Positions 6,580 to 64,000 of a DNA stretch of 64,000 bases are shown here, piece by piece. Position 1 is the first letter of the stretch; the number at the start of each line of letters is the position of its first letter. A program made the position numbers and the translations under genes. Below the pieces are notes generated by a model. It ran no database searches. It was not told the origin of the DNA and saw only the letters and a program-made list of their open reading frames with translations. This stretch comes from Clostridiales bacterium (GTDB taxonomy: Bacteria; Bacillota; Clostridia; Lachnospirales; UBA12420), in assembly GCA_003452395.1 (NCBI GenBank), contig DMOI01000041.1, forward strand, positions 8,362-72,361. Reading direction: 5' to 3'.

Positions 6580-7578
6580 CTACCTCACTTCATTTTCAAG
6601 TTCCTCACCTGCTCTATGTTTCCTTATGTTTTCTAGTGTTACGTGCGCAATACTGTCTAATGCTTCTTCCGTAAAAAAGGCTTGATGTGACGTGATTAAA
6701 ACGTTTGGTAGTGTGAGTAGTCTAGACAATACATCATCTTTTATTATCTCATCTGAATTATCCTCAAAGAAGTAATCTGCCTCCTCTTCGTAAACATCAA
6801 GTCCTGCATATCCGATTTTACCTGATTTTAATGCCTCTAGTAGTTCTACTGTATCTATAAGACTTCCTCTGCTTGTATTTATAATCATTACACCATGTTT
6901 CATCTTACTTATTGAATCTCTGTTTATTATGTGCATGGTTTCTTTCGTAAGTGGGCAATGAAGTGTAATTATGTTTGACTCTGTGTATAATCTATCTAAA
7001 TCAACATATAAAAATCCTTTCTCCTTTGCATAATCAAAGTTTGGATATGGATCGTATGCTAATATGTTTACGCCATATCCTTTTAATATATCAATCGTGA
7101 CTTTACCGATTTTTCCTGTACCTATTACTCCTACTGTCTTTCCGTGCATATCAAACCCTAATAATCCCTTAATTGCAAAATTATTTTCTCTTGTTCTAAA
7201 ATATGCTCGATGACATTTTCTATTTAGTGTCATCATAAGGGCTATAGCATGCTCCGCAACCGCATATGGGGAGTAATCAGGTACTCTCACAGCTTTTACG
7301 CCACTACCTAGTGCCTTCAAATCTACATTATTATACCCTGCACATCTTAATGCTATAAGTCCGACTCCATATTCTCTTAATTTTGATATTACTCGTTCAT
7401 TTACAGTATCATTTACAAAAATGCAAACTACATCATAATTCTTCGCAAGCTCTACCGTATCCTCATCTAGCTTGTACTCAAAGTATTTGATCCTTGCTTT
7501 ATGTTCTTCGTTATGCTTATTAAAAAACTCCATATCATATGATTTAGCATCAAAAAATGCAATTTTTGTTTTATTCAT
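6580..7578 (-). CDS. ldhA: D-lactate dehydrogenase / D-isomer-specific 2-hydroxyacid dehydrogenase
   Basis: 332 aa. Starts MNKTKIAFFDAKSYD, has the NAD-binding motif GVIGTGKIGKV, and a C-terminal TSHQAFFT catalytic His region. Confidence 0.85.
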   Translation of the reverse strand: MNKTKIAFFDAKSYDMEFFNKHNEEHKARIKYFEYKLDEDTVELAKNYDVVCIFVNDTVNERVISKLREYGVGLIALRCAGYNNVDLKALGSGVKAVRVPDYSPYAVAEHAIALMMTLNRKCHRAYFRTRENNFAIKGLLGFDMHGKTVGVIGTGKIGKVTIDILKGYGVNILAYDPYPNFDYAKEKGFLYVDLDRLYTESNIITLHCPLTKETMHIINRDSISKMKHGVMIINTSRGSLIDTVELLEALKSGKIGYAGLDVYEEEADYFFEDNSDEIIKDDVLSRLLTLPNVLITSHQAFFTEEALDSIAHVTLENIRKHRAGEELENEVR

Positions 7579-7739
7579 GAATCACACCTCCAACTTTGTA
7601 TTTCTTTATTGTATACTACTATAATAAAAATATCAATAAAAACAAATATATTATTTGCAATATTTTTGTTTTTATAGTAAAATAAACACGATAACAGTTG
7701 TTAGATATCAGATATGATTAATGAAAGGATTGAAATAAT

Positions 7740-8840
7740 ATGAAACTTGGAATAGTTGGATTGCCTAATGTAGGCAAAAGCACACTTTTTAACTGTCTCA
7801 CAAATAGCACAAATGCGGAGGCTGCAAATTATCCATTTTGCACTATCGACCCAAATGTTGGAATTGCACAAGTATCGGATGAGCGTTTAGCCAAACTACA
7901 AGCTCTTTACAAAGCACAGAAAACGTTACCTGCAATTGTAGAGTTTGTTGACATCGCAGGACTCGTAAAGGGTGCTAGCAAAGGCGAAGGTCTTGGCAAC
8001 AAATTTTTGTCGCATATAAAAGAGGTAGATGCAGTTTTACAAGTTGTAAGATGCTTTGAAGACTCTAATGTTACTCATGTTGAAGGTTCTGTAAATCCTA
8101 CCCGTGACATCGAGATTATAAACCTTGAGCTTATATTTTCAGATCTTGAAATAGTAGATAAGCGTCTACCAAAAGCAGAAAAAAACATGAGACAAGATAG
8201 ATTACTTGCAAAGGAATTTGATATGCTTAAAAGATTAAAAGAATCTCTTGAAAAGGGACTATTCGCGAGAACTTTTGAGACAGCTGATAATGAAGAATTA
8301 GAAATGCTTGAAACACTAAATCTTCTTACGTATAAGCCCGTTATATATGCTGCAAATGTTAATGAGGAGGACTTAGCAGATGATGGTGGGTCTAACCCGT
8401 ATGTTAATGCTGTCAGAGATTTAGCTGCAAAAGAAAATTCAAAAGTATTCGTTATATGTGCAAAAATAGAAGAGGAACTTGCAGGAATGGAAATAACCGA
8501 GAAAAAAGAATTCTTATCTGAGCTAGGACTTTCTTCTTCAGGACTTGATAAACTTATAGTTGCAAGCTATGACCTACTAGGCCTCATGAGTTTCCTTACA
8601 GCAGGCGTGAAAGAAGTACGAGCATGGACTATAAAAAAAGGTTCTACAGGACCTCAAGCAGCCGGCAAAATTCACTCCGATTTTGAAAAAGGATTTATTC
8701 GCGCTGAAGTCGTAAAATACAACGACCTTATAAATCTTGGCTCATATGTAGCTGCTAAGGAAAAAGGACTAGTCCGCATGGAAGGAAAAACATATATCGT
8801 TCAGGATGGAGATATTATAGAGTTTCACTTTAACGATTAA
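7740..8840 (+). CDS. ychF: redox-regulated ATPase YchF
   Basis: 366 aa. G1 motif GIVGLPNVGKSTLFN, and a C-terminal TGS-like ...IHSDFEKGFIRAEV. Confidence 0.95.
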   Translation: MKLGIVGLPNVGKSTLFNCLTNSTNAEAANYPFCTIDPNVGIAQVSDERLAKLQALYKAQKTLPAIVEFVDIAGLVKGASKGEGLGNKFLSHIKEVDAVLQVVRCFEDSNVTHVEGSVNPTRDIEIINLELIFSDLEIVDKRLPKAEKNMRQDRLLAKEFDMLKRLKESLEKGLFARTFETADNEELEMLETLNLLTYKPVIYAANVNEEDLADDGGSNPYVNAVRDLAAKENSKVFVICAKIEEELAGMEITEKKEFLSELGLSSSGLDKLIVASYDLLGLMSFLTAGVKEVRAWTIKKGSTGPQAAGKIHSDFEKGFIRAEVVKYNDLINLGSYVAAKEKGLVRMEGKTYIVQDGDIIEFHFND

Positions 8841-8875
8841 TGATAATAGTCATCACTATATATGCTAGACAAAGA

Positions 8876-8905
8876 GCGCATAAAACTTTTTTGAGTTTTA
8901 TGCGC
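8876..8905. terminator. hairpin between convergent ychF and spoVS
   Basis: Perfect 12-bp stem GCGCATAAAACT / AGTTTTATGCGC with loop TTTTTG. No clean U-tract on either side. Confidence 0.5.
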
Positions 8906-8943
8906 CCCACTACTTACAAATAACCTTTAGCTTACCTTACTTT

Positions 8944-9207
8944 CTACTTTCTACATTCTACTATTAATTTTACTGCTGTTCTTTCTTCTCCATCTATCTC
9001 TATTTCTGTAAATGCTGGAATACAAATTAAATCTATTCCAGCTGGTGCAACGTATCCTCTTGCAATAATTACTGCTTTTACTGCCTGATTAATCGCTCCA
9101 GCACCTACTGCTTGAACTTCTGCTGTTCCTTTTTCACGAATTGTATTTGCTAATGCTCCTGCCACGGAATTAGGATTAGATTTTGCTGCCACTTTTAATA
9201 CTTCCAT
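8944..9207 (-). CDS. spoVS: stage V sporulation protein S
   Basis: 87 aa. MEVLKVAAKSNPNSVAGALA is nearly invariant in SpoVS. Confidence 0.9.
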   Translation of the reverse strand: MEVLKVAAKSNPNSVAGALANTIREKGTAEVQAVGAGAINQAVKAVIIARGYVAPAGIDLICIPAFTEIEIDGEERTAVKLIVECRK

Positions 9208-9289
9208 TATTATTACCTCCTGGTATTGTGAAAATTTATTTTAAAATTATCTTAAGATTAAGAATAATTTTTTTGGCTGTCATTTGTAT

Positions 9290-10858
9290 TTATTTAGCGT
9301 ACTCTACTGATCTTGTTTCTCTTATAACGCTAACTTTTATTTGTCCTGGGTACTCCATAGAAGATTCTATTTGTTTTGCTACTTCTCTTGATAACACTAC
9401 CATTGCATCGTCATCAACTTCTTCTGGAATAACCATTACCCTGATTTCTCTACCTGCTTGAATAGCATAAGACTTTTCAATTCCCTTAAACGAATTTGCT
9501 ATACCCTCAAGTTTTTGCAATCTCTTTATATATGATTCGAGTGTCTCACGTCTTGCACCTGGTCTTGAAGCTGATATAGCATCAGCAACTTGTACTAACA
9601 CTGATATGATATACTTTGGTTCTTCATCTCCATGATGAGACGCAAGAGCATTCTTCACTATATCGTTTTCCCCGTATTTATTACACAACTCTAGACCTAT
9701 TTCAATATGTGTTCCCTCTTTTTCATAATCTACTGCTTTACCTATATCATGTAAAAGTCCTGCTCTTTTTGCCATGGCTACATTCTCACCAAGCTCAGCT
9801 GCAAGTAATCCAGATAAATGTGCAACCTCTATAGAATGTTTAAGTACATTTTGTCCATAACTTGTCCTATATTTTAGTTTTCCTAAAAGTTTAACAAGTT
9901 CCGGATTTATTAGTGTCACACCTAGCTCCATAAGAGCTTGTTCACCTGTTTCTTTTATTTCGTCTTTTATTTCTTTTTCAACTTTTGCGATAGTTTCTTC
10001 TATCCTAGCTGGATGAATTCTTCCATCAGCTATAAGTCTCTCTAAAGTAATTCTTGCAATTTCTCTTCTTACAGGATCAAATCCTGATAATATTACTGCA
10101 TCTGGTGTGTCATCTATTATCAAATCTATACCCGTTAGAGTTTCAAGTGCCCTTATATTTCTGCCTTCTCTACCTATTATTCTGCCTTTCATATCATCGC
10201 TAGGTAAAGTTACAACAGATACTGTGGTTTCTGCTACATGATCAACTGCACATTTTTGAATTGCACTTACTATCACTTCTTTAGCTCTTTTATTTGCCTC
10301 TTCTTTTGCCTTGTTTTCTTCTTCTCGTATTACCTTAGCCATCTCATGAGTCATATCATCTTTTACAGACTCTAGTAAATATACTTTAGCTTGTTCTGTT
10401 GTGAAATTCGACATTTTTTCTAGTAACTCTACCTCTTTTAATTTTAAACTTTCAATTTCATTTCTGGTTTCATCTAATTTTTCTAATTTCTTTTCTATTG
10501 TTTCTTCTTTCTTGTCAAGAGATGATGATTTTCTGTCAAGAGAATCTTCTTTTTGGATTAGTCTTTTTTCTGCTAATTGCAGTTCATCTCTTCTTACTTT
10601 AATTTCTTTTTCGATTTCTGATTTCATTTTCAGTTTTTCTTCTTTTGCTTCTAATATCATTTCTTTTTTTGTTGCTTCTGTTTGTTTTACTGCATTATCT
10701 ATAATTTGTTTTGCTTTTATTTCGGCACTTTCAATCTTCCCTTCAGCAAGTCTTTTCCTTATTACAATACCTGCTACGAAAGCTACTATTCCAGTAATTA
10801 TCGCCACTATCATCGTTATTAGTATATCGATGACTATCACCTCCTGTTTAAAGTACAC
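9290..10858 (-). CDS. rny: ribonuclease Y
   Basis: 522 aa: N-terminal TM helix, long coiled coil, KH ([12 protein letters not shown]) and HD (LLHDIGKA) domains. The track start is GTG with a poorly placed SD, so the exact start is uncertain. Confidence 0.93.
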
Positions 10859-56604: not shown

Positions 56605-58257
56605 TTACAATATATCTACTTCACCATTCATAGTTTCGCTTATAATTGGGTTTGCATCAAAGTCATATAACTTTGCGTTCTCAATACTAACTCCCGTACT
56701 TCCTTTTTCTACATCTTTTATTTTAAAAGTAATTATAAATAAACTTCCTGCTTTAGTAATCGGTTTTGTACCTGCCCACGTTGCTCTAATTTTATTTACT
56801 GTATATTTTTCATTAGATATTGCTAACATATCTGACATCAGTTCTCCTGAGACTACACTTATAACTTCCAACTTGTTGTTGTCATAAACTAAATTAAAAC
56901 TACCTCCGCAAACCTGTGATTTTTCAGTCAATTGAACATTCACTATTACGTTTGCTTCAGTTTTCCCGCTAACTCTACCCACAGTAATTGTTGGTGCTGA
57001 TAATGTTTCTGGTACTATTGATGTTTCTGGTATAGTTATTGTTATTATGTTACTTGCATCCCTGTTAAAATATAAATTTGAATTAAAATAACTCGTATAT
57101 TTATAGGTCTTACCTGATTCTGCAGTAGTATCTATATAAAAATTCTCATCTTTATCTATCGTTCCAGCTAAGCAAATGCCATCTCTATATATATCTGTTG
57201 TATAATCTTTTTTATCCCATGTTAATTTTACTGTTCCATCATCCAAAAGAATTCCTTTAAAATTCGATGGTGCTTCTAAATGAACAGTTTTATAGTCATT
57301 TGCTGTACTTGTCATTTTAACTACTTTTTCTGGTTCTGTACCCATAGTCCAAAACTTCCATGTCCCATCAGTTTGTTTTCTAATAGTCATATACCTGCTA
57401 TTTATTCCTTTTTCCCATCTCGTGCTTTGTGGATTAATTGCATCTATTTTTACACTATACTCAATTCTATTGTTTTTATCAATCTCATTAACATATACTT
57501 CATATGATTTTAAAACATAATTTTGATCAGCTTCGAAACATTCTTTTAATGCCGCTTCAGCTTTAACTTCATCTTCACTTTTTACTATACCATTATCAAC
57601 CAGATTTGTTGTTTCATCTAAATTAACCGCAACTACTTTTTCACCTTTTGCCTTGTATAGTAGCACACATGCCTCAGCCCTTGTCAAAGTCTTTTGCGCA
57701 TTGAAGTTTGTACCATCGCCTTCCATTATTTTATTTTTCACTGCTATAGCTACATATCCTCTTAAATCCATTGATATATCATTTTTATCTGCAAATTTAT
57801 CTAATAACGTTAGGTCTGGAGTTTCTTTCAACAACCCCTTTGCTCTTACGATTGCTACTGCCATATCTTCCCTTACTGCATTCTCGCTACCCCTAAAAGA
57901 CATTGTGCTTCCAATTTTATACCCCGTAAGGTATTGTTTTGCTGCCTCTACATATGTATATGCCCATTCTGATTTAGTTACATCGCTGAATGTTTGTGTT
58001 GTTTCAGTATCTTTTGGCAAGTTTAATGCCAAAACTAATATTTTTGCAAATTGTTCTCTCGTTACTGGTTCTTCTGGTCTAAACGTACCATCTTCAAATC
58101 CTTTTATTACTCCCTTATTAACCATATCACTTACTGCATTATATGCCCAGTGGCTACTTGGTAAATCCTCAAAACCTACTACTTGTGCATTTGATACTGG
58201 TACTATTTGTACCATCATTGCTAAACACATTATAAAACTGATAATTCTTTTTACCAC
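56605..58257 (-). CDS. cell-surface protein: signal peptide, 3 SLH domains, FN3-like module, C-terminal cohesin-like domain
   Basis: 550 aa. SLH repeats (FEDLPSSHWAYNAVSDMVNKGVIKGFEDGTFRP, FSDVTKSEWAY..., FADKNDIS...). C-terminal GGSFNLVYDNNKLEVISVVSGELM...GSLFIITFKIKD fits the cohesin pattern. Confidence 0.75.
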   Translation of the reverse strand: MVKRIISFIMCLAMMVQIVPVSNAQVVGFEDLPSSHWAYNAVSDMVNKGVIKGFEDGTFRPEEPVTREQFAKILVLALNLPKDTETTQTFSDVTKSEWAYTYVEAAKQYLTGYKIGSTMSFRGSENAVREDMAVAIVRAKGLLKETPDLTLLDKFADKNDISMDLRGYVAIAVKNKIMEGDGTNFNAQKTLTRAEACVLLYKAKGEKVVAVNLDETTNLVDNGIVKSEDEVKAEAALKECFEADQNYVLKSYEVYVNEIDKNNRIEYSVKIDAINPQSTRWEKGINSRYMTIRKQTDGTWKFWTMGTEPEKVVKMTSTANDYKTVHLEAPSNFKGILLDDGTVKLTWDKKDYTTDIYRDGICLAGTIDKDENFYIDTTAESGKTYKYTSYFNSNLYFNRDASNIITITIPETSIVPETLSAPTITVGRVSGKTEANVIVNVQLTEKSQVCGGSFNLVYDNNKLEVISVVSGELMSDMLAISNEKYTVNKIRATWAGTKPITKAGSLFIITFKIKDVEKGSTGVSIENAKLYDFDANPIISETMNGEVDIL

Positions 58258-58514: not shown

Positions 58515-58657
58515 AACATTCGGGGTCAGGCATGAATTTTAGAGTTTCTTTTATAGGTTTCCACTACTGAAATAGCATATTCTGTTAGGTTGATGTCTCT
58601 ATTTTTAATCTTAGATACCATAGTTGCATCTATGTTTAACTTGTTACTTATACTTAT
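58515..58657. repeat. direct repeat A (fragment copy of the 3' part of the HTH gene at 63.7 kb)
   Basis: 143 nt. Differs from 63656-63797 by two substitutions and one extra T by my alignment. In this copy the indel breaks the HTH reading frame. Confidence 0.9.
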
Positions 58658-58898
58658 GCTGTATACCTTGCATTATTTTAGCTGATTTCGTTTTTACTAC
58701 CTCTATAAGCATATGTGCATGATTATCCATGATGCAGTATGCATAAAATTTAAATTCATACTTTTCTTTATAGTTTGTAATTATATCTAAGTAATGCATT
58801 TTGTCTTGCATATCCTTTAAAATATATTCTCCATTATTACCTCTAACCATTATGTGATACAATGCACCTTCGTAATGTATCCTTTGTTTTCTTGCCAC
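58644..58898 (-). pseudogene. truncated IS200/RAYT-like HUH (Y1) transposase
   Basis: 84 aa from a GTG start. ARKQRIHYEGALYHIMVRGNN...YAYCIMDNHAHMLIE carries the HUH motif (HAH). The C-terminal half with the catalytic Tyr is missing, and the ORF ends where repeat A begins. Confidence 0.7.
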
Positions 58899-59124: not shown

Positions 59125-59958
59125 ATGAAGAAAATAATTTTTTTCAGGCATGGTGAGTCTTATAAGAATGCAACTGATATAACTGGCGGAAACGGAGCAC
59201 CATTAACACCTAATGGTAAAAATCAAGTCAATGACATTTCGACTAGGTTAAATACTATACTAGAAGATAGTCAAGAAAAAATAAATATTTATATGTCATG
59301 TAATCGTGTACAAGTACAAGAAACAGCTAACATCATTAAAGAAAACCTAGGAATTACTGATCAAATTAATATGTCATCGGATTATAGACCTTGGAAATTG
59401 GGAGTGTTTGATTCACTAAGTGCAGAACTAAGAAAATCCAGATACCCTGAAGCTTATGAAAAATCAAGATTATGGTTATCTGGGAATTTAGATGTGAAAA
59501 GTGCACGAGCTCCAGGTATGGAAGATATCGTAACATATTATGATATGATTAATGGGTTTATTGAGCAATTACCTGATAATGAGATTTATATTATGGTTGG
59601 AGTTAGGTCAGACTTAGAAGCCTTTATTAATATATTTAATAACGGTTCTCCTCGCGAAGAAATGAAATATAAGCATTACGACACTACATATTGTGAAGAA
59701 ATGGTTTATGATGAGAGAAATGGTAATTATTCTTTAAATTGTGACCAGAGTTCACCAGAAATGATCCTAAAAATTGTACAAGTTACCTCTGACCAAAAAG
59801 TTTCAGAAACTATTGAAAGTATCTCATCTCCTAATCCCGATTTGGATAATAAGAATATTGATGATGATTTTTGTAATCTTCTTGCAGATGGTTGTCTCAA
59901 TGCTTCCGATAATACTTTTGAATTAGTTTCCTCTGAAGAAGACGAGAAGATTTTATAA
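59125..59958 (+). CDS. histidine phosphatase superfamily (PGM-like branch) protein, divergent, with an acidic C-terminal extension
   Basis: 277 aa. IIFFRHGESYKN carries the RHG motif. The region where the second catalytic His (SHG) is expected reads MVGVRSDLEAF. About 80 extra C-terminal residues are D/E/S-rich. Confidence 0.65.
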   Translation: MKKIIFFRHGESYKNATDITGGNGAPLTPNGKNQVNDISTRLNTILEDSQEKINIYMSCNRVQVQETANIIKENLGITDQINMSSDYRPWKLGVFDSLSAELRKSRYPEAYEKSRLWLSGNLDVKSARAPGMEDIVTYYDMINGFIEQLPDNEIYIMVGVRSDLEAFINIFNNGSPREEMKYKHYDTTYCEEMVYDERNGNYSLNCDQSSPEMILKIVQVTSDQKVSETIESISSPNPDLDNKNIDDDFCNLLADGCLNASDNTFELVSSEEDEKIL

Positions 59959-59975
59959 TACCTACGTTTTATAAA

Positions 59976-60021
59976 TTGCAAATAAGAACAGCATTATTAT
60001 ATTTGCTGTTTTTATTTGCAA
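59976..60021. terminator. bidirectional terminator between convergent genes
   Basis: TTGCAAATAAGAACAGCA-loop-TGCTGTTTTTATTTGCAA, an 18-bp stem with one mismatch. Confidence 0.8.
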
Positions 60022-60118
60022 TTTTAAATTAAATCTTCTTGTTTTTCATTATATTCTATCTCTATATTCTTAATCTCTATTTTAAATTTTTTCCATCTTA
60101 TATTTTCCTGTAGATGAA

Positions 60119-60952
60119 TCATTTATACAATAATATTGCCAATAATTGAGTAATGTTTTTCATCTTAGTTCTATTTACTTCTATATAATCTTGATGTTTA
60201 TATACCACTTGACATTCTTCTTTCTTTTCTACAAACAATTCTTCATTAATTATATTACTGCTTAAACATATTCCTTTTTCCCTTACTTTACTAATTAAAT
60301 TACAATCCTCTAAAATGTTATCAACATTACTTTCTATATGTATATTTTTTATTTTATTTAATTGCAACTTATTATAGTAATATTCTGCAACAAAGTCTCT
60401 ATACGGCAAGTCTGCTTTATTCAGCTTTAAACTTTTAAAATTTTTTATAAACTCAGAAAAATACTTTTCTCCTTCTTCACTATCTTCATGTACTATTATC
60501 TCAAATTCTATAAATTCTCCTACGTTTAAAATTGAATCAATAAGAATATTATATGTAATCTCATTTTCTGTTTTGCTATAATAATCCCTTATCTTATCTA
60601 CAACTACATATGAATGATATCCAAAAACTTTAAACAATTCAACTATGTTTTCATATGACTTTACTTCTGATATAATATTAGACTCTTTCTTTGCATAGAA
60701 ACTCGAAAATATCTCTGATTTACCTTTGTACGTTATTTCAAGTTCCTTGTCATCTATTGTCCTAATCCTCAAGCAGGTCCTATTTTTTATAAATTCGCCT
60801 GCTAAATCAGTAAAGTATTCATCCTTTTCGTTTATTCTTTTTATAAACTTAAATCCTTCTTTTTCTATTTTATTTTTTATTATCTCAGTATCACTATCAC
60901 ACAAAAACTTCTCTTCGATTTCTACAACTGTTCTATGGTCAGATTTTTTCAT
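60119..60952 (-). CDS. CYTH-domain protein (class IV adenylyl cyclase / triphosphate tunnel metalloenzyme-like) with a C-terminal extension
   Basis: VEIEEKF (ExExK), CLRIR, TYKGK and NVGEFIEFEI follow the CyaB/CYTH pattern. Start set at ATG 60952 (SD GGAGGA 8 nt upstream, 1 nt after the upstream TGA); the ORF is open to 60994. Confidence 0.75.
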   Translation of the reverse strand: MKKSDHRTVVEIEEKFLCDSDTEIIKNKIEKEGFKFIKRINEKDEYFTDLAGEFIKNRTCLRIRTIDDKELEITYKGKSEIFSSFYAKKESNIISEVKSYENIVELFKVFGYHSYVVVDKIRDYYSKTENEITYNILIDSILNVGEFIEFEIIVHEDSEEGEKYFSEFIKNFKSLKLNKADLPYRDFVAEYYYNKLQLNKIKNIHIESNVDNILEDCNLISKVREKGICLSSNIINEELFVEKKEECQVVYKHQDYIEVNRTKMKNITQLLAILLYK

Positions 60953-60953
60953 A

Positions 60954-63494
60954 TCAGCATTCCTCCAGCTCTTTAATGTTTTTATGTTCATCATAAATTT
61001 TTATGAGAATTTCAGCTAATTCATCAAAAACATCAACTTCAATACCCTCAAAACTATCTTTAGTAGCTAATGTATTTTCTAGGACACATACACATTTTAA
61101 TCCTGCTCTTTTCGCGGCTTCTATACCTCTTTTTGAATCTTCAAAAACTATACATTTTTCTTTAGAAGTTTTCATTTTATTTAAAGCTTTCAAGTAACTT
61201 TCAGCATCCGGTTTATACTTTTCCACATCGTCTCTAGAAATTATTACATCAAATACATCATCTGCATCTAATTTGTTAAGAATATTTTTTACAAACTCTT
61301 TTTTTGAAGATGTTACCAATGCTAACTCCAACCCTTTTTCTTTTAATTTCTTGATAAGCCTGATATTTTTCAAACCTTCCGTCTCGCTGGTTATCACATC
61401 TATTCTGTCTTTATATTCTTCATATACCTTATCCATCATTTCTTTTTTATCAACTTTTTCATCTATCTCTTTTCTTGCTTTTAAGTATACCATTAGTTTT
61501 TCATTGTTCTCTAACTCATATTTTATGTAATCTTCTTTCTCTATTTGAACACTATAATCCCTTCCTAAAATAAATTGCCACGATTCAAAAAATACTTTTT
61601 CTGATGGCACTATAGTCCCATCTAAATCAAATAGTATTCCATTAATATTCTTTAAATCTCCTAACTTCCCTATCTGTTTTCTTGATATAATATCTCTGTA
61701 CGGTTCACATGCAGGTATTAAGTTCAATTCTTTAAATTGAGACATAAATTCATTAAACTTATCTTCTAACTTTTGCTTATCATCAGATATAATCTCAAAT
61801 TCAACAAAACTTCCAATATTCTTTATTTCGTCAAAATAAATATTATACTCATATTCCTTTGTACTTTTAGTATAAATTATCCTTTCTTTGTTTATTTTTA
61901 CATACTTATAAAAATTCAACATTTCAAGTATCTTCTTTGTTTTCTCTAGTCCTTCTTTATTTATTGAAACGTTAAACTCTCTCTTTGAATATTGATTGCT
62001 ATAGTCTTCGGATTCTCCTTTATATGTGAGTATAAAGTCTTTTGATTCATTCTTCCTAATTCGCAAGCATGTTCTATTATCAATAAATTCTCCTTCACTA
62101 TCTGTAAAGTATAAATCCTCTTCTTTTCCCTTTGTTTTATAAATATATCCAATTTTCTTAATATACTGTAATATTTCATCTTTTAGCTTATCGTCAAGTT
62201 CGAACTTTCCTTGTTTAACAAAAACTTTATTTTCATTGTTTTTTATACTTATTTTATGCTTCTTTACGATTTCAGCAATCATATATCTTCCTTGAATATT
62301 TGTAAAATAGTTATAATTTATTTCTGCCTCATTTTCAAATAGATTATTTAATAACTCTTCAAATGCTTCTTTACTTAAATATGCTCCACCAACATCCCCA
62401 AGAAACCCCATATACCAATACTTATTTAAAACATATGGGAAGCCTCCCATAATTTTCGGATCCTCTATTTCAACGATAACTATTTTTTTAGATACTTCAA
62501 ACATTTTCCTTAACATACCTATCAGATGGTCTTTACCAGGCATATGATGAAGCGTATTACTACAATATGAAACATCAAATATGCTCTCTTTAAAAGGAAA
62601 ATAAACTGCATTATGATTTGTAAATAGTACTTTTGGGTTTTTGATTTTACTGCTTAGGATTTCTATTTGACTCCAACTTATATCATTTCCTATCACATAT
62701 TTTGTAAGATTTAAATCTGCCAATTTTGATAAAAAGGAATCTTCCCCGCATGATACATCAACTATTCTCTCAGCAGAACCTATAGCCTTATTTATAATCA
62801 TATTGAATTCATTTTTTCTTTTTCTCTTATCTGTAAGAATATACTTTTTTATTATATTGTTATGCAGCAAATACCTGCTTTTGTAGTTTTCATTAGTTGA
62901 AATTTCATCATCTTGAAAATCTGATTTTTGAGTATTTATAAATTTTTTAAATCTTTTTTCAAAAATTCTAACAACTTCTCTATTTGCAAATCTATTTATA
63001 CTTTCTAATTCTTCTTCAGTAACTTCAACAAAACTACCTGTAAAATTCCTTGTATTGATATCCTCTTTATTTCTAATTCTCGCTATAAACGCAAGCCCAT
63101 TATGTTCATATTCTTGTGAATCATAAGTGAATTTATTTTTTATATATGCAATAGGTTCTACCTCTCCTATTTTTATTTCTTTCGATATCTTCTCTGATGT
63201 TCTTTTAATTGCATTATGAATATTTTCACTCTTATATATACTTCCACCCGGAACAGACCAAAACAACTTATCTTGCATATTCTTTTCCAAATAAACTTTT
63301 CCTTCATTATCATATATAAGAAGAAGTATAAAGTATTTTCTTTGTTTTACATAATCATATAGTCTTTTAGAAACCTCTCCCTTATAAGTAATGTCATTTA
63401 AGTCATATATTTCTCTATAAACTTCAAAAGCAAACCTTGTTTCCCCTACACTTTCTTTAAATATTTTATCACACAAAATATCCACGTTTCCCAT
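60954..63494 (-). CDS. four-domain fusion: Nudix-like / class I SAM methyltransferase / CYTH / HAD-IA hydrolase
   Basis: 846 aa, with four recognisable modules. Residues ~52-178 are a Nudix fold with a degenerate box (GGSIYKSENIHNAIKRTSEKI). Residues ~225-345 are a methyltransferase (IVDVSCGEDS, GNDIS, FDVSYCSNTLHHM). Residues ~423-603 are CYTH (CLRIR, TYKGE, IGSFVEFEI) with ExExK replaced by VKQGK. Residues ~617-815 are HAD (FDLDGT, LVTSS, KPD, FEDSKRG). Confidence 0.75.
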   Translation of the reverse strand: MGNVDILCDKIFKESVGETRFAFEVYREIYDLNDITYKGEVSKRLYDYVKQRKYFILLLIYDNEGKVYLEKNMQDKLFWSVPGGSIYKSENIHNAIKRTSEKISKEIKIGEVEPIAYIKNKFTYDSQEYEHNGLAFIARIRNKEDINTRNFTGSFVEVTEEELESINRFANREVVRIFEKRFKKFINTQKSDFQDDEISTNENYKSRYLLHNNIIKKYILTDKRKRKNEFNMIINKAIGSAERIVDVSCGEDSFLSKLADLNLTKYVIGNDISWSQIEILSSKIKNPKVLFTNHNAVYFPFKESIFDVSYCSNTLHHMPGKDHLIGMLRKMFEVSKKIVIVEIEDPKIMGGFPYVLNKYWYMGFLGDVGGAYLSKEAFEELLNNLFENEAEINYNYFTNIQGRYMIAEIVKKHKISIKNNENKVFVKQGKFELDDKLKDEILQYIKKIGYIYKTKGKEEDLYFTDSEGEFIDNRTCLRIRKNESKDFILTYKGESEDYSNQYSKREFNVSINKEGLEKTKKILEMLNFYKYVKINKERIIYTKSTKEYEYNIYFDEIKNIGSFVEFEIISDDKQKLEDKFNEFMSQFKELNLIPACEPYRDIISRKQIGKLGDLKNINGILFDLDGTIVPSEKVFFESWQFILGRDYSVQIEKEDYIKYELENNEKLMVYLKARKEIDEKVDKKEMMDKVYEEYKDRIDVITSETEGLKNIRLIKKLKEKGLELALVTSSKKEFVKNILNKLDADDVFDVIISRDDVEKYKPDAESYLKALNKMKTSKEKCIVFEDSKRGIEAAKRAGLKCVCVLENTLATKDSFEGIEVDVFDELAEILIKIYDEHKNIKELEEC

Positions 63495-63638
63495 GCTTGC
63501 CTCCCCTAAAATATCACACTTAAATCATGATTAATTGAGTGTTTATTCACTTTTCATATCTTACCATATTATAATTTTTTCTGCAATAAAAAAACATAAA
63601 TTACAAGAGAAACTGAAAATTGCAAATTATATCAAATT

Positions 63639-64000
63639 TTATTTTCTTATAGAAAAACATTCGGGGTCAGGCATGAATTTTAGAATTTCTTTATAGGTTT
63701 CCACTACTGAAACAGCATATTCTGTTAGGTTGATGTCTCTATTTTTAATCTTAGATACCATAGTTGCATCTATGTTTAACTTGTTACTTATACTTATATT
63801 GTTTATTTCACAATTTGTCTCTGATAAAATAATAATAGCTTTTCTTATATCAGAAATATTTCGTTTTTTTGTCTTCTTTACTATTTCTTCAACCTCTACC
63901 ATTTCTTGTTTTGAAACCTCTTCAATTAAATCTTCTATATTTATCAGCTTTTTACTACATCTCAGTTTAAACCTTTGTGCTTCTTCTATTTTATATTCCT
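63639..64000 (-). CDS. helix-turn-helix protein (5' end may lie beyond the window)
   Basis: The track gives 87 aa from ATG 63902, but the frame is open to nt 64000 (...EYKIEEAQRFKLRCSKKLINIEDLIEEVSKQE-MVEVEE...). ISNKLNIDATMVSKIKNRD looks like an HTH. Confidence 0.5.
   Translation of the reverse strand, partial: EYKIEEAQRFKLRCSKKLINIEDLIEEVSKQEMVEVEEIVKKTKKRNISDIRKAIIILSETNCEINNISISNKLNIDATMVSKIKNRDINLTEYAVSVVETYKEILKFMPDPECFSIRK
63656..63797. repeat. direct repeat B (inside the intact HTH gene)
   Basis: 142 nt, ~98% identical to 58515-58657. Confidence 0.9.

What the first reader, a model, noticed from the sequence alone, without database searches (positions are those of the whole stretch)
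60119..60994. Stand-alone CYTH paralog keeps the catalytic ExExK that the fusion's CYTH has lost, and is translationally coupled to it
The small protein aligns along its whole CYTH domain with residues ~455-603 of the fusion. Compare EYFTDLAGEFIKNRTCLRIR / LYFTDSEGEFIDNRTCLRIR, VGEFIEFEI / IGSFVEFEI and LPYRDFV / EPYRDII.
- It has VEIEEKF where the fusion has VFVKQGKF.
- Its preferred ATG (60952) lies 1 nt after the fusion's TGA, with GGAGGA 8 nt upstream.
- After PYRDFV, its tail (KIKNIHIESNVDNI...) occupies the place where the fusion starts its HAD domain (INGILFDLDGTIV). It looks like a decayed HAD remnant, implying tandem duplication followed by subfunctionalisation.

Class IV cyclase/CYTH enzymes work as dimers, so an active/inactive heterodimer is a plausible inference.
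Basis: partly seen in the sequence, partly recalled or inferred. Interest (0 to 1): 0.7.

Follow-up and report, generated by a model that had tools for sequence, protein, structure and literature searches.

The report
Complementary half-dead enzyme gene pair
Two adjacent, co-expressed genes each carry a triphosphatase (CYTH) domain and a phosphatase (HAD) domain, but each gene keeps only one of them catalytically intact, so a full enzyme set seems to need both; this adds a bacterial example to a known pattern and is not a new kind of system.

Summary
The 277-aa protein (60119..60952, minus strand) and residues ~420-603 of the 846-aa fusion (60954..63494) are paralogous CYTH domains (41% identity, E=2e-34). 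The small one keeps ExExK. The fusion has VxQxK.

New context:
- The fusion belongs to a widespread, uncharacterised four-domain family (Nudix-like, SAM-methyltransferase, CYTH, HAD).
- Among 37 family members, ExExK is lost only in this MAG plus its sister and in one Lachnospiraceae lineage.
- The small protein nests among stand-alone CYTH-HAD proteins. It is not a recent tandem copy of the fusion's CYTH (0/100 bootstraps).
- Its tail is probably a stripped HAD core, although the direct sequence statistics are weak.
- All domains, including both "dead" ones, are under purifying selection (dN/dS 0.05-0.11).
- The junction TGAtATG and its GGAGG are conserved in the sister MAG, and the pair forms a 3.5-kb cassette with its own promoter and terminator.
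- Other genomes split the same module differently. One (L051) independently shows CYTH-live/HAD-dead next to CYTH-dead/HAD-live.

Published sequence motifs indicate a triphosphate phosphohydrolase, not a class IV cyclase. Neither the heterodimer idea nor the substrate could be tested.

The parts
63558..63586 (-). Putative sigma-70 promoter of the two-gene operon: TTGCAG (63586-63581), 17-nt spacer, TAAGAT (63563-63558). It lies inside the ~100 nt upstream stretch that is conserved with the sister MAG.
   Evidence: Homology with L006 starts just upstream of this site. Consensus match only; the generic scan did not list it.
63500..63504 (-). GGAGG ribosome-binding site of the fusion gene, 5 nt before the ATG at 63494
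60954..63494 (-). 846-aa four-domain fusion: Nudix-like, SAM-methyltransferase, CYTH (ExExK lost) and HAD-IA
62895..63494 (-). Nudix-like N-terminal domain (aa 1-200). The Nudix box is degenerate (GGSIYKSE..RTSEK) across the whole family, yet this is among the best conserved domains.
   Evidence: Pfam NUDIX 17.7 bits, below the 21.1 cut-off; family consensus; per-domain identity
62250..62894 (-). Class I SAM-methyltransferase domain (aa 201-415; motif I VDVSCGED at 62739-62762)
   Evidence: Methyltransf_25 43.1 bits against a 27 cut-off
61686..62237 (-). CYTH/TTM domain of the fusion (aa 420-603). It is predicted to be catalytically dead but keeps CLRIR, YKG, KxE, KxR, FVEFEI and PYRD.
   Evidence: dN/dS 0.08.
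62205..62225 (-). VFVKQGK (aa 424-430) in place of ExExK: both metal-binding Glu are lost (to V and Q) and the Lys is kept. A further K-to-E change occurs in YKGESE (62007-62027).
61050..61652 (-). Intact HAD-IA phosphatase domain (aa 615-815): motif I FDLDGT, motif II LVTSS, motif III K(Y)KPD, motif IV FEDSKRG
   Evidence: HAD_2 E=9e-37; key residues DDT/TS/K/ED; coordinates
60950..60966 (-). Coupling junction: GGAGGA (60966-60961), fusion stop TGA (60956-60954), 1 nt, small-gene ATG (60952-60950)
   Evidence: The same TGAtATG and CTGGAGG occur in the sister MAG.
60119..60952 (-). 277-aa small protein: intact TTM-type CYTH domain plus a vestigial C-terminal domain
60389..60937 (-). Catalytically complete CYTH domain (aa 6-188): EIEEK at 60908-60922, CLRIR, YKGKS, FIEFEI, PYRD
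   Evidence: All 14 key positions match the family. The AF2 model's best PDB match is SaTTM 7nsd, E=5e-13.
60122..60388 (-). 89-aa tail (aa 189-277). Probably a HAD Rossmannoid core without its cap or any catalytic motif (IHIESNVDN in place of LFDLDGT), ending in the family's C-terminal helix KNITQLLAILLYK.
   Evidence: dN/dS 0.11.
59973..60024 (.). Hairpin with 21-nt arms between the small gene and the convergent histidine-phosphatase gene. Likely a bidirectional terminator and the end of the operon.
   Evidence: RNA fold -19.2 kcal/mol, z = -5.45.

Best explanation
The two genes form one operon that encodes a conserved four-part enzyme module, spread over two polypeptides with one working copy of each catalytic domain. 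The four parts are a Nudix-like domain, a SAM-methyltransferase, a triphosphate-tunnel (CYTH/TTM) phosphohydrolase and a HAD phosphatase.

The fusion supplies the methyltransferase and the HAD phosphatase. Its own CYTH has lost the two metal-binding glutamates but keeps the basic tunnel lining. It is therefore most likely a non-catalytic domain that binds a phosphate ligand or serves as a scaffold.

The small protein supplies the only competent TTM active site. It is of the metal-dependent triphosphate-hydrolase type, not a cyclase. Its tail is a stripped, catalytically empty relic of a HAD domain, kept for structural or docking reasons.

Shown here: paralogy, the residue losses, selection on every domain, the cassette structure, and the family-wide pattern.

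Inferred, not shown: that a one-nucleotide stop/start junction with a conserved Shine-Dalgarno site keeps the two proteins co-expressed; that they act together, probably in physical association; that the pathway cleaves a triphosphate and then dephosphorylates and methylates the product; and that the substrate is a nucleotide-like small molecule.
For: 1. Paralogy: E=2e-34. Both proteins score above the Pfam CYTH threshold.

2. The loss is targeted and restricted to few lineages.
- Of 35 invariant CYTH columns the fusion changes only E11, E13 and A189. It also carries one K-to-E change.
- Of 37 family members, only this MAG with its sister, and P0044/P0052, lack ExExK.
- Mutating these glutamates to Ala or Asp cripples many TTMs (PMC4641920).

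3. The small protein has all 14 key residues. Its confident AF2 model (pLDDT 87.9, pTM 0.87) best matches SaTTM (E=5e-13).

4. Window versus sister MAG dN/dS, at dS about 0.5:
- Nudix-like 0.05
- Methyltransferase 0.07
- Dead CYTH 0.08
- HAD 0.07
- Small CYTH 0.11
- Tail 0.11

5. The fusion's CYTH is only mildly accelerated: its identity ratio to family members is 0.85, against 0.89-0.94 for the other domains.

6. Homology between the two MAGs covers exactly 63598-60088, and the flanks differ. The junction and SD are conserved. A promoter-like site and a terminator hairpin bound the cassette.

7. The same module occurs elsewhere in several arrangements:
- as one gene;
- as [Nudix-like-MT]+[CYTH-HAD];
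- as [MT]+[CYTH-deadHAD]+[HAD] in 8 loci;
- in L051 as [MT]+[CYTH-deadHAD]+[deadCYTH-HAD].
In the arrangements that include a separate live partner (the 8 three-gene loci and L051) there is one live copy of each catalytic domain, and neighbouring module genes abut or overlap.

8. Tail as a HAD relic.
- The tails of the 293-aa and 347-aa relatives match the HAD profile at E=8e-11 and E=3e-7.
- The alignment is collinear.
- The C-terminal motif is shared: 1/678 unrelated ORFs and 27/5000 shuffles score as high.
- The model's beta-alpha-beta-beta-beta-beta-alpha order fits a Rossmannoid core.
Against: - No direct evidence of a physical or functional interaction.
- The direct tail-to-HAD sequence signal is weak: hhalign E about 0.02, and 68/1000 and 20/1000 shuffles score as high. 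MAFFT places the central helix differently in two runs.
- Small-type homologues occur without a fusion neighbour (L001; L005 sits next to a canonical Nudix). The small protein can therefore function alone.
- The second lineage with a dead CYTH in the fusion (P0044/P0052) is followed by a 2H phosphoesterase, not by a live CYTH. Compensation by a live CYTH is not obligatory.
- In 15 loci a CYTH-deadHAD gene has no live HAD next to it.
- The substrate is unknown. The nucleotide-metabolism neighbours (Ham1, Nudix, dTMP-kinase-like, PRTase) are seen in other genomes, not in this window.
Confidence: 0.6

Rival explanations
1. First reader's version. A recent tandem duplication of the fusion's own CYTH-HAD half occurred at this locus. 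Reciprocal decay followed, and the products now form an active/inactive CYTH heterodimer.
For: The genes are adjacent and share a strand, spaced 1 nt apart. The losses are complementary. The fusion's CYTH is about as similar to the small protein (40.6%) as to its best family match (41.7%). Dimerisation is common among CYTH proteins (PMC8233210).
Against: Small-plus-fusion monophyly appears in 0/100 NJ bootstraps. In 65/100 the small clade's sister is made up only of stand-alone CYTH-HAD proteins. The small protein is closer to P0004 (52%) than to its neighbour (41%). There is no excess of shared rare residues: 4, within the usual range of 3-6. A 70%-identical small-type gene exists beside a different neighbour. 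The fusion's long branch could still mask a true sister relationship.
Confidence: 0.15
2. The small protein is an independent housekeeping tripolyphosphatase or NTPase that merely lies downstream. The fusion works without any TTM activity.
For: Small-type and CYTH-deadHAD proteins occur alone in other genomes. The Lachnospiraceae fusion with a far more decayed CYTH has no CYTH partner.
Against: The pair is conserved as a discrete cassette with a conserved overlapping-type junction, in different flanks. CYTH-HAD genes are normally part of the module, sitting next to the methyltransferase gene. ExExK loss in the fusion coincides with the presence of the intact paralogue in this lineage.
Confidence: 0.15
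3. The fusion's ExExK-less CYTH is a regulatory sensor that binds a (tri)phosphate ligand and gates the fused methyltransferase or HAD, as proposed for AtTTM1. The small protein sets the level of that ligand. This can coexist with the main explanation.
For: The basic tunnel residues are all kept and are under purifying selection. In AtTTM1/2 the same glutamates are replaced by Gln, the tunnel still binds anions, and the domain contacts the fused kinase's active site (PMC9582702).
Against: There is no ligand or structural data for this protein. In most family members the CYTH is catalytically complete, so a regulatory role would be a secondary acquisition.
Confidence: 0.25
4. The small protein is a class IV adenylate (nucleotidyl) cyclase that makes a cyclic nucleotide signal.
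For: It hits NCBIfam TIGR00318 cyaB (48.1 bits), and NCBI names the fusion 'class IV adenylate cyclase'. YpCyaB structures appear among the fold matches.
Against: The small protein scores below the TIGR00318 cut-off of 57.95. There is no HF motif four residues before ExExK (it has DHRTVVEIEEK). Both arginines of xRxR are kept (CLRIR), and the second Glu of ExE is kept (FIEFEI). These are the three discriminators given in PMC8233210. The best fold matches are tripolyphosphatases.
Confidence: 0.03

Closest known systems
Triphosphate tunnel metalloenzymes of the tripolyphosphatase/NTPase type (SaTTM 7NS9/7NSD, C. thermocellum TTM, NeuTTM, E. coli YgiF)
   Same: The small protein has ExExK, xRxR, ExE and the other tunnel residues. 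Its predicted fold best matches SaTTM (E=5e-13, TM 0.75 on the target).
   Different: It carries an extra 89-aa C-terminal domain derived from, or replacing, a HAD domain. It is encoded in an operon with a multidomain partner. Its activity and substrate are untested.
Arabidopsis AtTTM1/AtTTM2: a catalytically incompetent TTM domain fused to a P-loop kinase (PMC9582702)
   Same: The ExExK glutamates are replaced, to Gln/Gln in AtTTM1/2 and to Val/Gln here (Gln/Gln in P0052). The basic tunnel is kept. The dead tunnel is embedded in a multidomain enzyme.
   Different: The fusion partners differ (methyltransferase and HAD instead of a uridine-kinase-like domain). Here a live paralogue is encoded immediately downstream. 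The ExE motif is kept here, whereas PMC8233210 reports it lost in AtTTM1/2.
CyaB-type class IV adenylate cyclases (Aeromonas CyaB, Yersinia pestis 2FJT/3N0Y)
   Same: Same superfamily and fold. This is the source of the database name attached to the fusion.
   Different: The HF motif, the small residue in place of the first Arg, and the ExA motif are all absent.
HAD-IA small-molecule phosphatases with a C1 cap (TM_1254 3KBB, beta-phosphoglucomutase, BT2127 pyrophosphatase 3QU2, pseudouridine-5'-phosphatase)
   Same: The fusion's HAD has all four motifs and a cap region. Its best PDB sequence match is TM_1254, E=1e-21.
   Different: It is fused behind a CYTH domain. The small protein's tail keeps none of the catalytic motifs and lacks the cap.
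Enzyme/pseudoenzyme paralogue pairs arising by complementary degeneration (duplication-degeneration-complementation); recalled from general knowledge, not searched here
   Same: Each of two paralogous two-domain units keeps a different active domain.
   Different: Here one unit is embedded in a four-domain fusion. The two units are not each other's closest relatives. The same outcome appears independently in L051.

Membership tests
CYTH / triphosphate tunnel metalloenzyme superfamily (PF01928): small protein | Pfam CYTH score above the gathering threshold | tested here: met
   42.8 bits against 23.2, aa 11-180
CYTH / triphosphate tunnel metalloenzyme superfamily (PF01928): small protein | N-terminal ExExK metal and substrate motif | tested here: met
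   EIEEK at aa 11-15
CYTH / triphosphate tunnel metalloenzyme superfamily (PF01928): small protein | Basic xRxR, tunnel lysines and C-terminal ExE | tested here: met
   Key-residue string EEKRRKKKEKREER is identical to the family consensus
CYTH / triphosphate tunnel metalloenzyme superfamily (PF01928): small protein | Eight-stranded beta-barrel tunnel fold | tested here: met
   AF2 pLDDT 87.9. Foldseek top hits are SaTTM, PH1819 and YpCyaB, probability 1.00. This is a prediction, not a solved structure.
CYTH / triphosphate tunnel metalloenzyme superfamily (PF01928): small protein | Metal-dependent triphosphate hydrolysis | not testable with these tools
   Needs an enzyme assay
CYTH / TTM superfamily: CYTH domain of the fusion | Pfam CYTH score above the gathering threshold | tested here: met
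   55.2 bits against 23.2, aa 439-592
CYTH / TTM superfamily: CYTH domain of the fusion | N-terminal ExExK | tested here: not met
   VFVKQGK: Glu to Val and Glu to Gln. Homologous in fold, but predicted inactive as a hydrolase.
Class IV adenylate cyclase (CyaB, TIGR00318) | HF motif extending the signature to HFxxxxExExK | tested here: not met
   The small protein has DHRTVVEIEEK. The fusion has no ExExK at all. Criterion from PMC8233210.
Class IV adenylate cyclase (CyaB, TIGR00318) | First Arg of xRxR replaced by a small residue, and ExE changed to ExA | tested here: not met
   Both proteins have CLRIR and F(I/V)EFEI
Class IV adenylate cyclase (CyaB, TIGR00318) | NCBIfam equivalog score above the cut-off (57.95) | tested here: inconclusive
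   Small protein 48.1 bits (below). Fusion 64.5 bits (above), despite lacking ExExK.
Thiamine triphosphatase subfamily | Aromatic W/Y in W/YxRxR | tested here: not met
   Cys at that position in both proteins (CLRIR) (PMC8233210)
HAD superfamily: fusion C-terminal domain | Motifs I (DxDxT), II (S/T), III (K) and IV (ED/DD) | tested here: met
   FDLDGT, LVTSS, KYKPD and FEDSKRG. HAD_2 E=9e-37.
HAD superfamily: tail of the small protein | Catalytic motifs I-IV | tested here: not met
   IHIESNV replaces FDLDGT. No motif III Lys and no motif IV acidic pair. No Pfam HAD hit.
HAD superfamily: tail of the small protein | Homology to a HAD Rossmannoid core (descent, not activity) | tested here: inconclusive
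   - Direct profile comparison: E about 0.02.
- Shuffle test: p 0.02-0.07.
- Intermediates link significantly to HAD: 8e-11 and 3e-7.
- C-terminal motif: p about 0.005.
- The tail-only AF2 model was too poor for a fold search (pLDDT 55).
Nudix hydrolases: fusion N-terminal domain | Nudix box GX5EX7REUXEEXGU and a Pfam score above threshold | tested here: not met
   17.7 bits against 21.1. The box reads GSIYKSE-7-RTSEKISKE, and the family consensus also lacks REUXEE.
Class I SAM-dependent methyltransferases: fusion aa ~240-340 | Pfam methyltransferase models above threshold | tested here: met
   Methyltransf_25 43.1/27, Methyltransf_11 39.3/21.2, Methyltransf_23 33.3/27
Known anti-phage defence systems (PADLOC) | Match to any PADLOC model | tested here: not met
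   No hit for either protein

The most novel reading that the evidence does not exclude
An uncharacterised but widespread module (Nudix-like, methyltransferase, TTM, HAD) works as an obligate multi-domain assembly. Catalytically dead copies of CYTH and HAD are retained as docking elements. Duplication or fission then repeatedly yields complementary pairs: live CYTH with dead HAD alongside dead CYTH with live HAD. This is seen here and, independently, in L051. The [CYTH-deadHAD]+[HAD] loci would be a further stage of the same process. The pair in this window would then be a true heteromer that processes a triphosphorylated, nucleotide-like metabolite in successive steps.
Probability: 0.3. Interest if true: 0.65.

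Novelty: new variant of a known kind. Interest (0 to 1): 0.5.

Why it matters
- The pair gives a clean, testable bacterial case of complementary domain inactivation. Each "dead" domain is still under purifying selection, and the nearest published precedent is the inactive TTM domain of plant TTM1/2.
- It points to a conserved four-part module that has no assigned function. The module has at least 103 clusters (at 50% identity) with E<=1e-30 for the Nudix-like-methyltransferase half. It occurs in Patescibacteria, Bacteroidota and gut Bacilli and Clostridia.
- It shows that the database name "class IV adenylate cyclase" is probably wrong for these proteins.
- The split and fused variants act as natural "Rosetta stone" evidence that the four activities belong to one pathway. 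This narrows a biochemical search for the substrate.

Tried and rejected
- **Tail-only AlphaFold job (alignment A2).** pLDDT 54.9 and pTM 0.24, all-helical, unusable. No fold search of the tail was therefore possible.
- **Foldseek with the full-length small-protein model.** Only CYTH matches were returned.
- **Direct profile-profile and HMM tests of the tail against HAD.** Only marginal signal. Two MAFFT runs aligned the central helix to different HAD segments.
- **phmmer of the small protein against PDB.** The top hits were designer PPR proteins with no single stretch passing threshold. I treat these as a composition or repeat artefact. The real hits were PH1012, PH1819 and YpCyaB.
- **Generic promoter/terminator scan.** No more sites than in shuffled sequence in this AT-rich DNA, and nothing useful at the junction.
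- **PADLOC.** No hits.
- **Test for a hidden sister relationship or gene conversion.** Counting rare shared residues between the small protein and the fusion's CYTH showed no excess.
- **Metagenome scan with the small protein.** It added only the sister-MAG contig, a 344-bp relic and one short gut contig.
- **Literature searches.** No paper describing CYTH-HAD or the four-domain fusion turned up.
- **Adenylate cyclase and thiamine triphosphatase assignments.** Considered and rejected on motif grounds.

Full report
**What is in the sequence**

The window comes from the MAG "Clostridiales bacterium GWD2_32_59", since both proteins are 100% identical to its records. On the minus strand, an 846-aa ORF (60954..63494) is followed by a small ORF (60119..60994 from the first ATG, 60119..60952 from the second).

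The junction reads GGAGGA(60966-60961)-ATGC-TGA(60956-60954)-T-ATG(60952-60950).

Pfam finds the following in the large protein:
- a sub-threshold NUDIX match (aa 56-159, 17.7 bits against 21.1);
- class I SAM-methyltransferase models (aa ~240-340);
- CYTH (aa 439-592, 55.2 bits);
- HAD_2 (aa 620-804, E=9e-37).

In the small protein Pfam finds only CYTH (aa 11-180, 42.8 bits).

BLASTP between the two gives 41% identity over 177 residues, E=2e-34.

**Which start codon**

The ATG at 60952 is the better start, for three reasons:
- It has a GGAGGA 8 nt upstream. The ATG at 60994 has none.
- All relatives begin 4-10 residues before ExExK.
- The 70%-identical homologue in locus L005 has a different upstream gene. 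Its ORF can begin only at the equivalent MKKHEH, and it has its own GGAGG 10 nt upstream.

**The fusion belongs to a conserved family, and its ExExK loss is exceptional**

The large protein has full-length homologues of ~830-850 aa. The named records come from Bacteroidota, Patescibacteria (Uhrbacteria and others) and Lachnospiraceae MAGs; many others are unnamed. A ~570-aa form lacks HAD.

In an alignment of 37 members, the window protein departs from positions that are at least 90% conserved at only a handful of sites. Two of those sites are the ExExK glutamates. Scoring 14 tunnel and metal residues in every CYTH domain collected gives the consensus string EEKRRKKKEKREER in 58 of 75 proteins.

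The exceptions fall into three groups:
- The window protein and its sister (P0028/P0029) lack both glutamates and carry one K-to-E change.
- A Lachnospiraceae pair (P0044/P0052) has QxQxK plus four more losses.
- The remaining deviations are single changes at one lysine, a truncated sequence, or an alignment offset in the ~570-aa forms, which do carry ExExK.

Of the 35 invariant columns of the stand-alone CYTH-HAD alignment, the fusion changes only E11, E13 and A189.

In solved TTMs these glutamates bind the catalytic metal. Changing them to Ala or Asp strongly reduces activity in plant, bacterial, fungal, viral and protozoan enzymes (PMC4641920). In Arabidopsis TTM1/2 the same glutamates are Gln. 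There the tunnel binds no metal and the domain is described as catalytically inactive, yet it still binds anions through its basic lining (PMC9582702).

The fusion's CYTH is therefore best read as a pseudo-enzyme domain that has kept its ligand-binding tunnel.

**The small protein is a TTM-type hydrolase, not a cyclase**

It has all 14 key residues. Its AlphaFold model is confident (pLDDT 87.9, pTM 0.87). The best PDB matches are the Sulfolobus tripolyphosphatase SaTTM (7nsd, E=5e-13), then Pyrococcus CYTH proteins, then YpCyaB.

PMC8233210 gives three discriminating motifs. On each, both proteins fall on the triphosphatase side:
- There is no HF four residues before ExExK.
- xRxR reads CLRIR, with a small first residue and both arginines kept. 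This argues against both a thiamine triphosphatase and a cyclase.
- ExE is intact.

The small protein scores below the NCBIfam cyaB cut-off. The fusion scores above it, and NCBI names it "class IV adenylate cyclase" although it lacks ExExK. That name looks wrong.

**Where the small protein comes from**

Apart from three close relatives, its homologues are mostly ~415-aa two-domain CYTH-HAD proteins (42-52% identity). There are also shorter forms of 263-353 aa.

In an NJ tree of 68 CYTH domains, the small protein's clade sits inside the stand-alone CYTH-HAD group, next to P0004 and P0005. The window fusion's CYTH sits on a long branch elsewhere.

The numbers are as follows:
- Over 100 bootstraps, small-plus-fusion monophyly was never recovered. 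The small clade's sister consisted only of stand-alone family members in 65 replicates.
- Identity of the small protein is 40.6% to the neighbouring fusion, 46.2% on average (52.5% at best) to CYTH-HAD proteins, and 40.3% on average to other four-domain proteins.
- The two neighbours share 4 rare residues, within the range of 3-6 seen for arbitrary pairs.

A recent in-situ tandem duplication is therefore not supported. The two are older paralogues from the same module family. One caveat remains: NJ on a long branch is not decisive.

**The tail**

A gap-tolerant alignment lines up four segments of the tail with HAD elements:
- IHIESNVDN with motif I (LFDLDGTxxN);
- LISKVREKGICLSSN with the helix and strand that carry motif II;
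- QVVYKH with the motif IV strand;
- KNITQLLAILLYK with a hydrophobic C-terminal helix shared by the whole family.

In this alignment the cap and the motif III segment are deleted.

Relatives form a length series. The ~415-aa proteins have all HAD motifs. The ~340-375-aa forms have the nucleophile lost (NxD, or no alignable motif). The 293-aa form has the cap deleted. The 263-277-aa forms are the shortest.

Profile-profile comparison links the 293-aa and 347-aa tails to the HAD domain significantly (E=8e-11 and 3e-7). It links the small protein's tail only weakly, to either the HAD domain or those intermediates (E about 0.02-0.03).

In a shuffle test against a profile of the other tails, 68/1000 (window protein) and 20/1000 (P0005) shuffles scored as high. 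The C-terminal motif is more convincing. Only 1 of 678 unrelated ORF C-termini and 27 of 5000 shuffles reach its score.

The full-length model predicts strand-helix-strand-strand-strand-strand-helix for the tail, with pLDDT 72-94, packed against the CYTH barrel. A tail-only model failed, so no structural search of the tail was possible. A second MAFFT run aligned the central helix to a cap helix instead.

My reading is that HAD descent is likely, at about 0.7. It rests mainly on family context rather than on direct similarity.

**Selection and cassette structure**

The sister MAG GWD2_32_19 has the same pair. Comparison of the two (dS about 0.5) gives these dN/dS values:

| Region | dN/dS |
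|---|---|
| Nudix-like | 0.051 |
| Methyltransferase | 0.068 |
| Fusion CYTH (dead) | 0.082 |
| HAD | 0.072 |
| Small CYTH | 0.110 |
| Tail | 0.114 |

Neither "dead" part is drifting. The fusion's CYTH is only slightly more diverged from family members than its other domains (ratio 0.85 against 0.89-0.94). The Lachnospiraceae dead CYTH is much more eroded (0.62).

DNA homology between the two MAGs covers window 63598-60088 at 89.7% and then stops. A further 79%-identical ~105-nt stretch covering the downstream hairpin region follows a ~210-nt insertion in the sister, and the flanking genes differ.

The conserved upstream ~100 nt holds TTGCAG-17-TAAGAT and a GGAGG before the fusion's ATG. TGAtATG and CTGGAGG are conserved at the junction. 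A hairpin with 21-nt arms (59973-60024, -19.2 kcal/mol, z=-5.45) separates the small gene from the convergent histidine-phosphatase gene. The cassette's GC is 0.26-0.27, against about 0.30-0.35 elsewhere in the window.

Together these features describe a self-contained two-gene operon in a variable region.

**The module in other genomes**

A scan of one genome per species returned 56 loci. Domain HMMs and residue scoring show the same four parts arranged in several ways:
- one gene of ~835 aa (L003, L019, L021, L056, L058, L059);
- [Nudix-like-methyltransferase, ~415 aa] followed by [CYTH-HAD, ~416 aa] (L009, L032, L033, L037, L041);
- [methyltransferase, ~345 aa] + [CYTH with dead HAD, ~350 aa] + [stand-alone live HAD, ~230 aa] in eight loci (L036, L038, L042, L043, L045, L047, L049, L061);
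- the first two of those genes without an adjacent HAD, in 15 loci;
- in L051, [methyltransferase] + [CYTH-live/HAD-dead] + [CYTH-dead/HAD-live]. The dead CYTH there reads EEKRRKAKVKRKEC, so it has lost a lysine, two glutamates (including the metal-1 Glu of ExE) and the PYRD arginine.

Neighbouring module genes abut or overlap by a few bases. L051 is an independent occurrence of the reciprocal pattern seen in the window. The three-gene loci show that a dead HAD stays attached to a live CYTH even when a live HAD is encoded separately.

This is the main argument that the dead domains have a structural role and that the parts work together.

The Nudix-like-methyltransferase half alone has 103 clusters (at 50% identity) at E<=1e-30 and 214 at E<=1e-10. 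Most are stand-alone ~400-aa proteins.

**Counter-examples**

- The small-type homologue P0005 (L001) has no module neighbour.
- L005 has a canonical 170-aa Nudix hydrolase upstream.
- The Lachnospiraceae fusion with a dead CYTH is followed by a 2H phosphoesterase (2_5_RNA_ligase2, 29.6 bits in L065), at 2 nt or overlapping, and not by a CYTH.

Pairing a dead CYTH with a live one is therefore one solution, not a rule.

**Function**

The substrate is unknown.

Hints that it is a small molecule: the HAD has a C1-type cap, and its nearest solved relatives are sugar-phosphate, pyrophosphate or nucleotide phosphatases.

Hints that it is nucleotide-like: in gut Bacilli and Clostridia MAGs the module follows a LysR regulator (34 loci). 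It lies near Ham1/ITPase, Nudix, two thymidylate-kinase-like genes, a phosphoribosyltransferase and a nucleotidyltransferase.

In some of the MAG loci with the one-gene form (including a Patescibacteria MAG) it sits between gatC and gatA, or beside a thymidylate-kinase-like gene.

I therefore commit, with modest confidence, to sequential processing of a triphosphorylated nucleotide-like small molecule. The TTM would cleave the triphosphate, the HAD would dephosphorylate the product, and the SAM-dependent domain would methylate it. The Nudix-like domain would act as a binding module. No PADLOC model matches.

**Verdict**

The losses are complementary, the two genes show co-expression signals, and the tail is probably of HAD origin.

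It is wrong or unproven in three others. The pair is not a recent tandem duplication, the proteins are not of cyclase type, and the heterodimer is untested. A heterodimer could not restore the fusion's tunnel in any case, because each protomer forms its own tunnel.

This is a new variant of known themes (TTM pseudo-enzymes, enzyme/pseudo-enzyme paralogue pairs) inside an uncharacterised module. It is of moderate interest.

Noticed in passing
L051 5828-9257: An independent reciprocal pair in a gut Bacilli MAG. The order is methyltransferase gene, then CYTH-live/HAD-dead (349 aa), then CYTH-dead/HAD-live (423 aa). The dead CYTH has lost a Lys, two Glu and the PYRD Arg.
   Followed up: partly
L064 4608-7783 and L065 178-3385: Lachnospiraceae four-domain proteins (P0052, P0044) have a heavily eroded CYTH (QxQxK plus four more losses). 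Each is followed at 2 nt, or overlapping, by a 2H phosphoesterase (2'-5' RNA ligase / CPDase superfamily). L064 flanks carry DUF2786 and zinc-ribbon genes.
   Followed up: partly
L036, L038, L042, L043, L045, L047, L049, L061 (about 6700-9700 in each): Three-gene form of the module: methyltransferase, then CYTH with a dead HAD, then a separate live ~230-aa HAD, with the genes abutting or overlapping. A LysR regulator lies just upstream in most of them.
   Followed up: partly
L015, L030, L038, L040, L047 and others (within 5 kb of the module): Recurrent nucleotide-metabolism neighbours: Ham1/ITPase, Nudix hydrolases, two thymidylate-kinase-like genes, a phosphoribosyltransferase, a nucleotidyltransferase and an SDR.
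   Followed up: partly
L058, L059, L044 (6400-10700): In these MAGs (one labelled Patescibacteria, two labelled Gammaproteobacteria) the four-domain gene sits between gatC and gatA, downstream of a LigA-like gene. The gene names are my reading of the N-terminal sequences only.
   Followed up: no
L067 8000-8343: A 344-bp relic (88% identical) of the 3' end of the small gene plus 31 nt downstream, with no start codon, lying after a ThrRS-like gene on another contig of the same metagenome as the sister MAG. It suggests the cassette has moved or been partly deleted.
   Followed up: partly
window 58644..58898 (-): Truncated REP-associated tyrosine transposase (84 aa; NF047646 E=4e-9, below cut-off), about 1.2 kb from the cassette. 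A 70%-similar stretch also lies near the sister MAG's cassette.
   Followed up: no
window 59125..59958 (+): A 277-aa histidine-phosphatase-superfamily protein (His_Phos_1, E=3e-9) with a long acidic C-terminal extension. It is convergent with the small gene and lies outside the conserved cassette.
   Followed up: no
window 62895..63494 (-), and the whole four-domain family: The N-terminal Nudix-like domain lacks the REUXEE catalytic core in every family member examined. Even so, it and the methyltransferase are the most conserved domains (about 54% mean identity, against about 40% for CYTH and HAD).
   Followed up: partly
window 60001..64000: The cassette region has GC 0.26-0.27, against about 0.30-0.38 across the rest of the window. 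In the sister MAG it sits among GmrSD_N, AAA_14/DUF4143 and gene fragments, which suggests a variable island.
   Followed up: no
window 63639..63902 (-): An 87-aa ORF with a faint helix-turn-helix-like match (Bac_DnaA_C, E=0.009), just upstream of the cassette but outside the stretch conserved with the sister MAG.
   Followed up: no
window 56605..58257 (-): A 550-aa protein with a signal-peptide-like N-terminus. It has only weak partial matches (E=5e-13, far below cut-off) to the C-terminal part of a NEAT/LRR surface-protein model. Not examined further.
   Followed up: no
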